From: Naegleria gruberi
Lineage: Eukaryota
Reading direction: 5' to 3' (one strand)
DNA: 2,601 nt
Assembly: GCA_000004985.1 (NCBI GenBank)
Contig: GG739256.1
The notes beneath the pieces were generated by a model. It saw only the letters and a program-made list of their open reading frames with translations. It was not told the origin of the DNA and made no database searches. Made by a program: the position numbers and the translations under genes. Below, one piece after another: positions 1-2,601 of this stretch (positions are counted from its first letter, which is position 1; each line of letters starts with the position of its first letter).

Positions 1-324
1 AAAGGGTGAGTGGTTTAAATCTCTTCTGACTGATGTTGAAGATGACGATGACGAAGAGGACGATGAAGGAGAGGATGATCTTCCTGTTGTTGTATTCCTT
101 CTTGATGAAGTAGATCTTGATGAAAAAGATGTTTTCTTATTATTATTGTAAGAAGTTGTTGATGATGATGAACCTCGTAAATAGGAATTAATTAGTGAAG
201 ATGAGAACTTATTCACTTGTTGACCAAGTAACTTCGAAGCTGATGATGCATCAACAATGACTTGTTGCTTCTTGGAAAAAATTCCGCAATTGAAAGTGAT
301 TGGGTTGAGAATAAATTTCTTCAT
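1..324 (-). CDS. N-terminal part of a Ser/Thr/Arg/Asn-rich low-complexity protein (3'-partial, continues beyond window start)
   Basis: ATG at complement(322..324) in an A-rich context (aaaaaaATGaag). All 108 codons are open to position 1: MKKFILNPITFNCGIFSKKQQVIVDASSASKLLGQQVNKFSSSLINSYLRGSSSSTTSYNNNKKTSFSSRSTSSRRNTTTGRSSSPSSSSSSSSSTSVRRDLNHSPF. The ATG coincides with a sharp switch to extreme AT-richness at 325. It is absent from the ORF track only because it has no in-window stop. Caveat: the antisense plus frame (2..151) is also open and reads as an acidic D/E tract, so the strand is not certain. Confidence 0.5.
   Translation of the reverse strand, partial: MKKFILNPITFNCGIFSKKQQVIVDASSASKLLGQQVNKFSSSLINSYLRGSSSSTTSYNNNKKTSFSSRSTSSRRNTTTGRSSSPSSSSSSSSSSTSVRRDLNHSPF
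31..78 (-). repeat. imperfect trinucleotide (TCN)n / antisense (GAN)n tract encoding poly-Ser (SSSPSSSSSSSSSTS)
   Basis: On the minus strand 16 consecutive codons are TCA/TCT/TCG/TCC/CCT/ACA. The plus strand shows gatgacgatgacgaagaggacgatgaaggagaggatgat. Shorter (GAT)3 at 161..169 and (TTA)3 at 137..145 lie nearby. Confidence 0.6.
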
Positions 325-544
325 TTTTTTAATATTTTACTTTTTTCAATATATTCCACAAAATAATTGAAAATATTTTCGAAATTATTAAATATTTCAA
401 ATAAATATGAATTGAATTTATAATTTGATTTTTTTTATTGGATAACATCAATAAAAGATTTTTTCGTATTTTCTAAAGATGGAAATTGTCTTTTTTGATA
501 ATTTGTTATATTGGCAGATACTAATCAAAAAAAAATAGATCAAC
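325..544. promoter_or_regulatory. AT-rich intergenic region, putative divergent promoter (for the minus-strand gene starting at 324 and possibly for the plus ORF at 545)
   Basis: The region is much more AT-rich than its flanks. It contains poly(dA:dT) tracts (T7 at 324..330, T6 at 341..346, T8 at 429..436, T6 at 459..464, T6 at 491..496, A9 at 527..535), a TATAAT at 419..424, and GATAA motifs at 441..445 and 497..501. It sits directly 5' of the minus-strand ATG at 324. Confidence 0.5.
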
Positions 545-805
545 ATGATTCGAACGGTTTGCAAGTCAGTATACAACAAACGAATGGTTTCTCATTTGAA
601 AAGATCAATACAAAATAATTCTAAACGAAACTATTGTCAATCACAGTGTAAACTCTTCACACCAATCATTGTGGAGAGTGGATCATGTCTGGAAGGTTTC
701 TTTTCCAATACTAAACTTGAATTTGATATTGAAACTGGACAATTAATATCAGATTATCAAGATCCAAAACAAGTTTCGATTAATGGAACAAGAAATTACG
801 AATGA
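545..805 (+). CDS. hypothetical small protein (86 aa, 7 Cys); coding status doubtful
   Basis: A complete ATG..TGA ORF with A at -3 (atcaacATGa). Its composition is less AT-rich than the adjacent intergenic block and it has no homopolymer runs. I recognise no family motif. It overlaps nothing else, but it is convergent with and only 58 bp from the MFS stop, so it could equally be 3'UTR/intergenic sequence. Confidence 0.25.
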   Translation: MIRTVCKSVYNKRMVSHLKRSIQNNSKRNYCQSQCKLFTPIIVESGSCLEGFFSNTKLEFDIETGQLISDYQDPKQVSINGTRNYE

Positions 806-838
806 GTCATTTAAACACCCGTTGGATTCAGAAATTGA

Positions 839-844
839 TTTATT
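839..844 (-). terminator. AATAAA polyadenylation positioning-element candidate for the MFS gene
   Basis: Plus tttatt at 839..844 is AATAAA on the minus strand, 20 nt downstream of the TAA stop (866..864). A T-rich tttgtttg lies immediately upstream on the minus strand. Confidence 0.35.
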
Positions 845-863
845 CAAACAAATCTAAATCAAA

Positions 864-1397
864 TTATGCATCCTTGCTTTCTGTCAATTGGATATCTTTG
901 GTATCATTTTCCACGTTTCCATTTTGAGTTTCCTCTTCTTTCGTCTGCACATTTTCAACTCCTGCAACACTAATTGCCTTTTTTTCAGCTTCCTTCTTTG
1001 CTTTAGCAACAGCTCTCTTTGCAATAATATTTGGTGAAGTTTCCTCCAACAAGGTCGAATAAATAATAATTCCAATAAAAGAAAATCCAGCAAAAATAAA
1101 CCAAGGAACTGCCTGATTTGTCATTACAACAACAGGAATGAAAAACAATGAGAGAATAATTGAAGTTGACCACATGGCAATCGTGCTGATTGAAGTACCC
1201 AAAACGACAACCTTCTCATTCTCACCCCTAAAAACTTCATATGCCAAAACATAACCAAGTGAACCAACACCAACATGAAAACCTATTAAATACAAACAAT
1301 TGAACAAGAGAGCGAGGGCTACTTTGTAAACTTGTCCATTTTCTCCAAATTGAAAGATGAAACCTTCTGCAAGATCTGTTAAGAAACTGACAGTGAA
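864..1397 (-). CDS. MFS transporter, exon 2 (TM9 C-terminal half through TM12 plus Lys/Glu-rich C-terminal tail), stop TAA at 866..864
   Basis: The frame opens exactly at the acceptor (FTVSFLTDLAEGFIFQF...) and completes a hydrophobic TM9 begun in exon 1 (PLMIFG|FTVSFL...). Downstream motifs match the sugar-porter C-terminal half: GSLGYVLAYEVFRGENEK (cf. GPxPWxxxSExFPxxxR) and LLEETSPN (cf. PETKG...LEE). The track start at 1307..1305 is a TTG, not a true start. Confidence 0.85.
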   Translation of the reverse strand, partial: FTVSFLTDLAEGFIFQFGENGQVYKVALALLFNCLYLIGFHVGVGSLGYVLAYEVFRGENEKVVVLGTSISTIAMWSTSIILSLFFIPVVVMTNQAVPWFIFAGFSFIGIIIYSTLLEETSPNIIAKRAVAKAKKEAEKKAISVAGVENVQTKEEETQNGNVENDTKDIQLTESKDA

Positions 1398-1441
1398 CTA
1401 TTTGCGTATTGTCAATTAGATCTTTTAAATTCAGTACTTAC
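1398..1441 (-). other. spliceosomal intron (44 nt), phase 0, within TM9 of the MFS gene
   Basis: The minus-strand sequence is GTAAGTACTGAATTTAAAAGATCTAATTGACAATACGCAAATAG. It has a canonical GTAAGT donor, a CTAAT (CTRAY) branch-like element 18 nt before the 3' end, and a TAG acceptor. Its length is not a multiple of 3, which exactly accounts for the frame shift between the two large minus ORFs. The unspliced frame hits TGA 10 codons after the donor, and the downstream frame becomes open exactly at the acceptor AG. Confidence 0.8.
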
Positions 1442-2601
1442 CCCAAAGATCATGAGTGGCTTTCTTCCAAACTTATCAACAAGGAACATGGTTGGGAAGA
1501 TGCAAAATAATTGCCATACAGAAACACCTAGTGAAGCCAATTGCTGACCTAATGGATCAGAAACTCCGGCAGCCTCAATTAATGATGGTAAAAACATGAC
1601 TGAACTCTGAATACCTGTCCATTCCATAGCAAAACATCCCCAACAAGCTATAATAAGAGCCTTAATAACTTTGGAGCAGAATAATCTCTTGCAGGCAGCA
1701 ATGGTCGACATGGTTTTCTTCTTAATGGGTGGTTCTTCTGTTATTACTGGCATTTCTATCTCTGTGTTAGCTTCTCCAGATGGTTGTTCTTGTTGTAGTT
1801 TTGGTCTTTCTTGTTCATCAATTGGAGATTCATCTTGTTGAGTTTCAATATCAGCAGCATCTTGTTCTCTTTCCAATACTTCAGAGTCATCAATCGCGTC
1901 ATTATTGACATAGGCAGAACAAACATGAGGAAGAGTCTTTATCTGTTCTTCATCAGTGTTTCCCTCCACCACAGGACGATTTTCTGTTGGATTGGCTGCA
2001 TTTTGATTTGCAATGCCCACCTTTGATTCATCCATCTTTTGCTGATGTTTCTGTTTCAATTCCTCCTCATGATCATGATGACCACCATGAATAAACAATG
2101 GAGATTCAGGAATAATAAAAACAACCAAAACAAAAAGTGGAATGATAAATAAATTGTGGAAAGCATGAACAGCTCTCCACATTTCACTCGAACGAACAAA
2201 GATTGCCCCAAAGGCATATCCCCAACAAGTACCCAAACTAATACCCAAATTGAACATACTTCCCAATAATCCCATATATTTAGGGAATGGCATCAACTCG
2301 ACAACATACACCGAAGAAACTGCAGTGACAATTCCACTTCCAAAACCCAAAATGCATCTAAAGACAATCAATGTAGAATATTGATATGATGCAGCAGCTC
2401 CAATTGATCCAATAATTGAAATTAAACAACTGAGAATGATGGATAACTTTCTACCGAGTACAGATCCTGTAAACATGGCAAACAAACATCCAAACAATCC
2501 ACCAATAAAGATACTACTAGCAAACAATCCCTGTAATATAGTTGTATCAAGATTGAATGAACTATTAGTTGCAGTTTTGGTTGCATTTCCGTTCAGAGAG
2601 T
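1442..2601 (-). CDS. MFS transporter (sugar-porter-like, 12-TM type), exon 1, 5'-partial (continues beyond window end)
   Basis: The frame is open from 2599 down to 1442. The track 'M' at 2527..2525 is a TTG codon, and upstream residues (SLNGNATKTATNSSFNLDTTILQG) continue without a stop and contain NAT and NSS sequons typical of the extracellular TM1-TM2 loop. Hallmark MFS motifs are present: G-x3-G-x-LGRK after TM2, R-x3-GFGSG-x9-Y-x2-E-x2-P in TM4, PESP after TM6, and D-K-F-G-R-K before TM9. Multiple hydrophobic helices are evident. The exon ends with ...LMIFG immediately before GTAAGT. Confidence 0.85.

What the first reader, a model, noticed from the sequence alone, without database searches (positions are those of the whole stretch)
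864..2601. Two ORF-track entries are one intron-containing MFS transporter gene
ORFs 1412..2527 and 864..1307 (minus) are in different frames and are separated by a 44-nt stretch. On the minus strand this stretch starts GTAAGT, has a CTAAT branch-like site, and ends with TAG exactly where the downstream frame opens. Splicing restores a continuous hydrophobic TM9 (PLMIFG|FTVSFLTDLAEGFIFQF) and the expected MFS TM9-TM12 half. The intron lies in the 3' half of the gene and its branch site differs from the strict TACTAAC of Saccharomyces-type yeasts. This pattern resembles fission-yeast or Taphrinomycotina-like or other short-intron fungi (mode ~45 nt, TAG acceptors). Both 'M' starts in the track are TTG codons, so the real N-terminus is off-window.
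Basis: partly seen in the sequence, partly recalled or inferred. Interest (0 to 1): 0.55.

Follow-up and report, generated by a model that had tools for sequence, protein, structure and literature searches.

The report
Annotated short intron in Naegleria transporter gene
The two reading frames are one sugar-porter-type membrane transporter gene of the amoeba Naegleria gruberi, interrupted by an ordinary 44-base spliceosomal intron that the public annotation already contains, so the finding is correct but routine and the organism is not a fungus.

Summary
On the minus strand, a 44-nt stretch (1441..1398: GTAAGT…CTAAT…TAG) separates two coding frames. Removing it joins Gly (1444-1442) to Phe (1397-1395) in phase 0.

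The window is an entire 2601-nt scaffold of Naegleria gruberi (Heterolobosea). The public model XP_002668161.1/EFC35417.1 already uses exactly this junction.

Independent support:
- A separately assembled 97.9%-identical contig carries the same 44-nt insert. Its exon indels are in frame and its substitutions are mostly synonymous in both exon frames.
- Five other homologues have a GTAAGT…AG intron at the same codon boundary, 39-80 nt long: two N. lovaniensis genes, two N. fowleri genes and one environmental contig. A sixth contig ends just after a GTAAGT at that boundary.
- One N. lovaniensis paralogue has no intron there and reads straight through.
- The spliced protein aligns without a gap across the junction to bacterial, yeast, insect and plant sugar porters.
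- A single-base frameshift cannot join the frames.

No transcript evidence could be obtained here. This is an ordinary, already annotated feature of low interest.

The parts
1442..2601 (-). Upstream coding exon of the transporter, partial because the frame is open to 2599. It encodes the TM1-TM2 loop, TM2-TM6, a roughly 120-aa acidic central loop, TM7, TM8 and the DKFGRKPLMIFG motif region.
   Evidence: Translation. Pfam Sugar_tr match to residues 12-196. Identical to XP_002668161.1 from 2530 downward. The 23 codons upstream of 2530 are conserved in homologues: FNLDTTILQGLFASS versus FDLGNSLLQGLFASS.
1398..1441 (-). 44-nt phase-0 GT-AG spliceosomal intron.
   Evidence: Sequence. The public model splices exactly here. 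The same 44 nt occur in the independent contig L001. An intron sits at the same boundary in 5 other homologues and is absent in one paralogue.
1436..1441 (-). 5' splice site GTAAGT.
   Evidence: Sequence. GTAAGT is identical in all 7 complete homologous introns and in the cut-off copy in L002.
1415..1419 (-). Candidate branch site CTAAT, with its A 18 nt from the 3' splice site. The overlapping TTGAC at 1415-1411 is an alternative.
   Evidence: Motif scan. Retained in L001. Actual use was not tested.
1398..1400 (-). 3' splice site TAG. It is also the stop codon that closes the downstream frame when the intron is not removed.
864..1397 (-). Downstream coding exon: the rest of TM9, TM10-TM12, a charged C-terminal tail, and stop TAA at 866-864.
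   Evidence: Translation. Pfam Sugar_tr profile positions 337-440. 4 synonymous versus 1 non-synonymous change against L001 in this frame, plus a 6-nt in-frame indel.

Best explanation
The minus strand of window 864..2601 is most of a single Naegleria gruberi gene for a 12-helix MFS transporter of the sugar-porter family (Pfam PF00083). It belongs to a divergent clade that was detected only in Naegleria-like sequences.

The gene is interrupted at 1441..1398 by a conventional U2-type GT-AG spliceosomal intron of 44 nt in phase 0. The spliceosome removes it and joins codon GGG (Gly) to TTC (Phe). That completes transmembrane helix 9 seven residues after the TM8-TM9 'GRK' motif and continues into TM10-12.

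If the intron stayed in the mRNA, translation would stop after 9 extra codons (VSTEFKRSN*). The product would be a non-functional protein ending after helix 8.

Shown here: the sequence signals, the frame geometry, collinearity with homologues, positional conservation of the intron, and purifying selection on both exons. Inferred: actual excision in RNA and the branch point used. Unknown: the substrate.
For: 1. Identity. The spliced translation matches 'predicted protein, partial [Naegleria gruberi]' at 100%. That protein (EFC35417.1/XP_002668161.1) sits on a contig of exactly 2601 nt, and its sequence reads ...RKPLMIFGFTVSFLTDL... across the junction.

2. Family. Pfam Sugar_tr scores 8.4e-55 for the spliced protein. 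The downstream exon alone matches profile positions 337-440 of 452.

3. Collinearity. MAFFT shows no gap at 386|387 against five Naegleria proteins, four bacterial sugar porters, one yeast transporter and one insect transporter. The phmmer alignment to the solved plant transporter STP10 is also continuous across the junction.

4. Intron conservation. A GTAAGT...AG intron lies at the identical codon boundary after '...FG/VG', in phase 0, in these homologues:
- N. lovaniensis P0004: 80 nt
- N. lovaniensis P0006: 53 nt
- N. fowleri P0005: 54 nt
- N. fowleri P0007: 66 nt
- Environmental contig L003: 39 nt, with in-frame stops
- Contig L002: GTAAGT begins at the same place and the contig ends shortly after
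N. lovaniensis P0003 has no intron there and codes straight through as RKSITIFGLVISILT.

5. Independent assembly. L001 is 97.9% identical and carries the same 44 nt with two substitutions (4.5% versus about 1-1.4% in the exons). The splice signals are intact. The exon indels are 9 and 6 nt. The synonymous:non-synonymous ratio is 11:5 in exon 1 and 4:1 in exon 2.

6. Uniqueness. Only this one of the 44 frame-restoring GT/GC-AG pairs has a consensus donor and removes no conserved residue.

7. Helix 9. A hydropathy peak at 382-400 straddles the junction and exists only after splicing.
Against: No transcript-level evidence was available. The 28-nt spliced junction is absent from the JGI metagenome collection, and a profile scan there found no relatives.

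The Naegleria protein models used for comparison are themselves gene predictions. However, the intronless paralogue and the bacterial homologues do not depend on any prediction.

Forty-four nt is short for this genus (mean 203 bp in N. gruberi; median 80 bp in N. lovaniensis).

The sugar-binding TM7 signature QQxxGxN of characterised hexose porters reads MEWTGIQ here (alignment). A sugar substrate is therefore not assured.
Confidence: 0.95

Rival explanations
1. The break in frame is a sequencing or assembly error (a frameshift) in a continuous, intronless gene.
For: The window is a tiny 2.6-kb leftover scaffold, a type of sequence prone to errors. Its last 20 nt appear to differ by one base from what the main-scaffold helicase model implies.
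Against: The open stretches of the two frames do not overlap. The upstream frame closes at TGA 1414-1412 and the downstream frame is closed until TAG 1400-1398, so no single indel can join them. An independent assembly (L001) has the same 44 nt. Homologues need zero extra residues at this point and carry their own introns at the same boundary.
Confidence: 0.01
2. The locus is a pseudogene, or two separate products: a truncated protein ending after helix 8 (the 371-aa ORF) and an unrelated 147-aa ORF starting at a TTG.
For: Prokaryote-style gene callers produce exactly these truncated products on the environmental contigs (P0002, P0008, P0009).
Against: The downstream exon is under purifying selection in its own frame, with a 4:1 synonymous:non-synonymous ratio and a 6-nt in-frame indel. 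It matches the C-terminal part of the Sugar_tr profile. It is about 61-62% identical to homologues in this half of the protein, with many invariant residues. TTG is not a normal eukaryotic start codon (general knowledge).
Confidence: 0.02
3. The intron is real but other splice sites are used, for example donor GTACTG at 1437 or acceptors at 1387/1376.
For: 43 other GT/GC-AG combinations also restore an open frame.
Against: All 43 delete or replace residues that are conserved in homologues, and none has the GTAAGT donor shared by every homologous intron.
Confidence: 0.02
4. The intron is retained in a regulated way, so that a substantial share of transcripts is unproductive (premature stop, possible nonsense-mediated decay) and this tunes transporter level.
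For: Retention gives a stop after 9 codons. In general knowledge, intron retention is the commonest form of alternative splicing in non-animal eukaryotes.
Against: Nothing in the sequence points to regulation. Intron sequence and length are not conserved between species. There are no expression data.
Confidence: 0.05

Closest known systems
NCBI/JGI gene model XP_002668161.1 (EFC35417.1), 'predicted protein, partial', Naegleria gruberi NEG-M
   Same: It is the same locus, on a 2601-nt contig. It uses the same intron and junction, and is 100% identical over 540 aa.
   Different: The public model starts at window 2530. The reading frame is open to 2599, and the 23 additional codons are conserved in homologues, so the model is slightly short at its 5' end.
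Tandem MFS paralogues of N. lovaniensis (C9374_008621/22/23) and N. fowleri (FDP41_004510/11)
   Same: 43-54% identity, the same architecture with a long variable central loop, and an intron at the same codon boundary in four of the five genes.
   Different: Their introns are 53-80 nt with unrelated sequence. Some have a further intron after EWTG that the window gene lacks. One paralogue (C9374_008621) has lost the junction intron.
Sugar porter family (Pfam PF00083, within the MFS), e.g. Arabidopsis STP10, S. epidermidis GlcP, human GLUTs
   Same: The fold-level sequence signature is shared: GRK motifs after TM2 and TM8, and PESP after TM6. Alignment through TM7-TM12 is continuous.
   Different: Identity is only about 24-30%. 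The central loop is roughly 120 aa, acidic and His-rich. The TM7 sugar-binding QQxxGxN is MEWTGIQ, and the C-terminal PETKG-like motif is EETSP. The substrate is unknown.
Short introns of fission yeast/Taphrinomycotina
   Same: GTAAGT donor, a CTAAY-like element, a TAG acceptor and a length of about 45 nt.
   Different: The resemblance is only in form. The organism is a heterolobosean amoeba, in which introns are on average longer.

Membership tests
U2-type GT-AG spliceosomal intron | GT at the 5' end and AG at the 3' end, with an extended donor consensus (GTAAGT). | tested here: met
   GTAAGT at 1441-1436 and TAG at 1400-1398. All homologous introns begin with GTAAGT and end with AG.
U2-type GT-AG spliceosomal intron | Removal restores one reading frame that is collinear with intron-free homologues. 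| tested here: met
   Gapless alignment across 386|387 to bacterial, yeast, insect and plant sugar porters and to the intronless paralogue P0003.
U2-type GT-AG spliceosomal intron | Branch-point element (YTNAY) 10-40 nt upstream of the 3' splice site. | tested here: inconclusive
   CTAAT (A 18 nt from the end) and TTGAC (14 nt) are present. However, homologous introns share no fixed motif and one has none. Which site is used cannot be known from sequence.
U2-type GT-AG spliceosomal intron | Non-coding evolution: length and sequence are free to vary while position and phase are conserved. | tested here: met
   Lengths of 39, 44, 53, 54, 66 and 80 nt at one boundary, with unalignable sequence. 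2 substitutions in 44 nt versus about 1-1.4% in the exons against L001, though the counts are small.
U2-type GT-AG spliceosomal intron | Excision observed in RNA. | not testable with these tools
   No transcript collection for Naegleria was available. The junction 28-mer is absent from the JGI metagenome contigs.
Sugar porter family (Pfam PF00083) of the major facilitator superfamily | Profile match above the curated threshold. | tested here: met
   Sugar_tr 186.9 bits against a cut-off of 22.3. MFS_1 59.4 bits against 33.4.
Sugar porter family (Pfam PF00083) of the major facilitator superfamily | 6+6 transmembrane helices with GRK/R motifs after TM2 and TM8 and PESP after TM6. | tested here: met
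   Hydropathy peaks for TM2-4, TM6-10 and TM12, and a peak over SIILSLFFIPVV (TM11), are seen in the window. TM5 does not reach the hydropathy threshold and is inferred from the alignment. LGRKLS, IPESP and FGRKPL are present. TM1 lies off-window and is seen in L001/P0010.
Sugar porter family (Pfam PF00083) of the major facilitator superfamily | Hexose-binding TM7 signature QQxxGxN. This defines characterised hexose porters, not the Pfam family as a whole (my own knowledge). | tested here: not met
   Aligned to STP10 FQQITGIN, the window protein reads AMEWTGIQ. EWTGIQ is invariant in the Naegleria clade.
Sugar porter family (Pfam PF00083) of the major facilitator superfamily | Demonstrated transport of a sugar. 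| not testable with these tools
   No experimental data were found.
Fission-yeast/Taphrinomycotina (fungal) gene | Closest relatives and source genome are fungal. | tested here: not met
   The 100% hit is Naegleria gruberi, and the next hits are N. lovaniensis and N. fowleri. Outside Naegleria-like sequences the best matches are bacterial, at E about 1e-17. Lineage is Discoba/Heterolobosea.

The most novel reading that the evidence does not exclude
These transporters were detected only in Naegleria-like sequences. Their TM7 reads EWTGIQ where hexose porters have the sugar-binding QQxxGxN, and they carry a long acidic, His-rich central loop. They may form a functionally new subgroup of the sugar-porter family with a non-hexose substrate or a sensing role. 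On a separate point, the 2.6-kb scaffold may be the piece missing from the 1.0-Mb scaffold, where the public model XP_002682839.1 wrongly fuses the transporter N-terminus to the neighbouring RNA helicase.
Probability: 0.2. Interest if true: 0.3.

Novelty: already known. Interest (0 to 1): 0.1.

Why it matters
It matters little beyond annotation hygiene. The result shows that a no-tools reader correctly recognised a eukaryotic intron from raw sequence. It also shows that prokaryote-style ORF calling splits this gene: the ENA metagenome calls P0002, P0008 and P0009 are all truncated at this intron.

Minor by-products:
- The public N. gruberi model can be extended by 23 codons.
- A neighbouring public model (XP_002682839.1) looks chimeric.
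- The intron is an old, position-conserved one, with one clear paralogue-specific loss in N. lovaniensis.

Tried and rejected
- Transcript evidence. An exact scan of JGI metagenome contigs for the spliced 28-mer found nothing. A profile-based scan of the same collection found no relatives.
- Main-scaffold copy. I tried to fetch it through P0010, but it is not on record. I therefore could not test whether the window is a haplotype copy or a gap filler.
- Single-base frameshift. Rejected from the frame geometry and from the independent contig.
- Alternative splice pairs. Enumerated and rejected.
- RNA families. An Rfam scan of the window at a permissive threshold gave only sub-threshold chance hits, and none lies in the intron.
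- ORF 545..805 (+). Pfam gave nothing above threshold and there is no homologue in the 5.8-billion-protein set. It is left unexplained.
- Literature. A search for Naegleria sugar/MFS transporters found nothing specific.
- Fungal origin. Rejected.

Full report
**What is in the sequence**

On the minus strand, the transporter frame is open from the window edge (2599) to GGG at 1444-1442, reading ...LVDKFGRKPLMIFG. The next 44 nt (1441..1398) are GTAAGTACTGAATTTAAAAGATCTAATTGACAATACGCAAATAG (27% GC).

The upstream frame runs 9 codons into this stretch and stops at TGA 1414-1412. The second frame is closed by several stops, the last being the TAG at 1400-1398. It then opens at 1397 as FTVSFLTDLAEGFIFQF... 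and runs to TAA at 866-864.

Both 'M' starts in the ORF list are TTG. One detail needs correcting: the two listed ORFs are 104 nt apart, and the 44-nt element overlaps the tail of the upstream ORF.

**Where it comes from**

The spliced translation matches 'predicted protein, partial [Naegleria gruberi]' at 100% (EFC35417.1 / XP_002668161.1, 540 aa). That protein's only contig is 2601 nt long, so the window is a whole small scaffold of the N. gruberi NEG-M assembly. The intron is therefore already annotated.

Naegleria is a heterolobosean in Discoba, not a fungus. The fission-yeast/Taphrinomycotina suggestion is wrong.

Published figures:
- N. gruberi: 33% GC, 1.7 exons per gene, mean intron length 203 bp (PMC8296547).
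- N. lovaniensis: median intron length 80 bp (PMC6125883).

So 44 nt is at the short end for this genus, not the mode.

**Is it really an intron?**

Five independent lines agree.

1. Frame geometry. The open parts of the two frames do not overlap, so no single indel could join them.

2. Independent assembly. An ENA metagenome contig (L001) is 97.9% identical over 1976 nt and carries the same 44 nt.
 - It has two substitutions inside the intron, and GTAAGT, CTAAT and TAG are all intact.
 - Its exon indels are 9 and 6 nt, while the one indel downstream of the stop codon is 2 nt.
 - Substitutions are 11 synonymous to 5 non-synonymous in exon 1 and 4 to 1 in exon 2, each counted in its own frame.

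3. Homologues. I mapped the annotated proteins onto their genomic loci.
 - A GTAAGT...AG intron lies at precisely the same codon boundary, in phase 0, in N. lovaniensis P0004 (80 nt) and P0006 (53 nt), N. fowleri P0005 (54 nt) and P0007 (66 nt), and environmental contig L003 (39 nt, with in-frame stops).
 - Contig L002 starts a GTAAGT at the same boundary and ends shortly after.
 - The third N. lovaniensis paralogue, P0003, has no intron there and codes straight through as RKSITIFGLVISILT.
 - This gives an annotation-independent template, and it needs zero extra residues at the junction.

4. Collinearity outside the genus. The alignment is gapless at 386|387 against bacterial, yeast and insect sugar porters. 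It is continuous against the solved plant transporter STP10.

5. Uniqueness. 44 GT/GC-AG pairs would restore an open frame, but only 1441..1398 has the GTAAGT donor and removes no conserved residue.

What is missing is RNA evidence. The spliced 28-mer and a family profile found nothing in the JGI metagenome collection.

**What the gene is**

Pfam Sugar_tr scores 186.9 bits against a cut-off of 22.3, and MFS_1 also passes.

The window encodes the TM1-TM2 loop with N-glycosylation-like sites, TM2-TM6, and a central loop of about 120 aa that is acidic (29 D+E against 12 K+R) and opens with HGGHHDHEEE. TM7-TM12 and a charged tail follow. The junction sits seven residues after the TM8-TM9 FGRK motif.

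The protein belongs to a clade detected only in Naegleria-like sequences. The next best hits are bacterial sugar porters at E about 1e-17 and 24-30% identity.

The TM7 motif that binds sugar in characterised porters (QQxxGxN; my own knowledge) is MEWTGIQ here. EWTGIQ is invariant in the clade. Family membership is therefore solid, but a hexose substrate is not assured.

**Mechanism**

This is a conventional U2-type spliceosomal intron in phase 0. Splicing joins Gly to Phe. Retention would add VSTEFKRSN and a stop, giving a non-functional protein ending after helix 8.

The branch point may be CTAAT (A 18 nt from the acceptor) or the overlapping TTGAC (14 nt). Homologous introns show no shared branch motif, and one has no YTNAY within 40 nt of its end.

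**Surroundings**

- Window 323..1 (minus) starts another gene. Its product (...STSSRRNTTTGRSSSPSSSSSSSSSSTSVRRD...) matches the N-terminal part of the helicase portion of XP_002682839.1 (P0010), 'ATP-dependent RNA helicase', on a 1.0-Mb N. gruberi scaffold.
- That public model is odd. Its first ~242 residues are the N-terminus and TM1-TM4 of this very transporter. An 8-residue linker LEGGSSLQ follows, which is not encoded anywhere in the window, and then the helicase.
- The roughly 2 kb that the fusion model skips is what the window contains. This suggests either a gap or misjoin in the large scaffold or a haplotype copy. I could not fetch that scaffold.
- Window 301-540 is 13-19% GC, typical of intergenic or promoter DNA. 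Window 545-860 has coding-like GC of 30-33%.
- An 86-aa ORF at 545..805 (+) has no homologue or domain.

**Verdict**

The gene-structure interpretation is correct and the lineage guess is wrong. The feature is an ordinary intron already present in the public annotation, so interest is low.

Noticed in passing
window 1..323 (-): A second gene starts at ATG 323-321 and runs off the window. Its product (...STSSRRNTTTGRSSSPSSSSSSSSSSTSVRRD) matches the N-terminal part of the helicase portion of the N. gruberi 'ATP-dependent RNA helicase' XP_002682839.1.
   Followed up: partly
window about 11..21 (-): The window reads ...RRDLNHSPF where the main-scaffold model reads ...RRDYKPLTLLEPP. This is consistent with a 1-nt difference (gattTaaacc versus gattAtaaacc) about 20 nt from the scaffold end. 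It could be an end-of-scaffold sequencing error or an allelic indel. This is inferred from protein only.
   Followed up: no
P0010 / XP_002682839.1 (1.0-Mb N. gruberi scaffold) versus window 323..2601: The public model looks chimeric. Residues 1-~242 are the transporter's N-terminus through TM4, then comes a linker LEGGSSLQ that the window does not encode in any frame, then the helicase. The skipped ~2 kb is the content of this window. This suggests a gap or misassembly in the large scaffold, or that the window is a haplotype copy.
   Followed up: partly
window 2530..2599 (-): The public CDS (XP_002668161.1) begins at 2530 (GLFASS...). The frame is open to the window edge, and the 23 extra codons (…NSSFNLDTTILQ) are conserved in homologues (FDLGNSLLQ). 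The annotated partial model is therefore short at its 5' end.
   Followed up: yes
window 545..805 (+): An 86-aa ORF lies between the two genes, convergent with the transporter. Its GC is coding-like (30-33%, against 13-19% at 301-540). It is 100% conserved over 57 aa in contig L001, with a 2-nt indel just before its stop. It has no Pfam domain above threshold and no homologue in the protein collection. It is either a real orphan gene or the transporter's 3' UTR.
   Followed up: partly
window 301..540: An extremely AT-rich stretch (13-19% GC), presumably the promoter/intergenic region upstream of the helicase gene.
   Followed up: no
L001 about 105..170: In the 97.9%-identical relative, which extends 574 nt beyond the window, the gene starts MKNPIKLFYTLKYIEKYESY. 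It has a first intron of about 66 nt (GTACGT…CATTAAC…AATAG, phase 2) before KSKRVFLAICL. N. lovaniensis and N. fowleri paralogues have an intron at the same position. The full gene therefore has at least two introns.
   Followed up: partly
L004 13553..15682 (N. lovaniensis P0003): This is one of three tandem paralogues. It lacks the junction intron that its two neighbours and both mapped N. fowleri paralogues keep, which is a paralogue-specific intron loss.
   Followed up: yes
L003 1547..1585: The homologous intron here is 39 nt, a multiple of three, but it contains in-frame stops. It must therefore still be spliced out. The prokaryote-style gene call on that contig is truncated at this intron.
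   Followed up: yes
window about 1620..1640 (-) and 1700..2070 (-): The TM7 sugar-binding signature QQxxGxN of characterised sugar porters is MEWTGIQ here, and EWTGIQ is invariant in the Naegleria clade. The central loop is unusually long (about 120 aa), acidic, and begins with the His-rich HGGHHDHEEE. The substrate may not be a hexose.
   Followed up: partly
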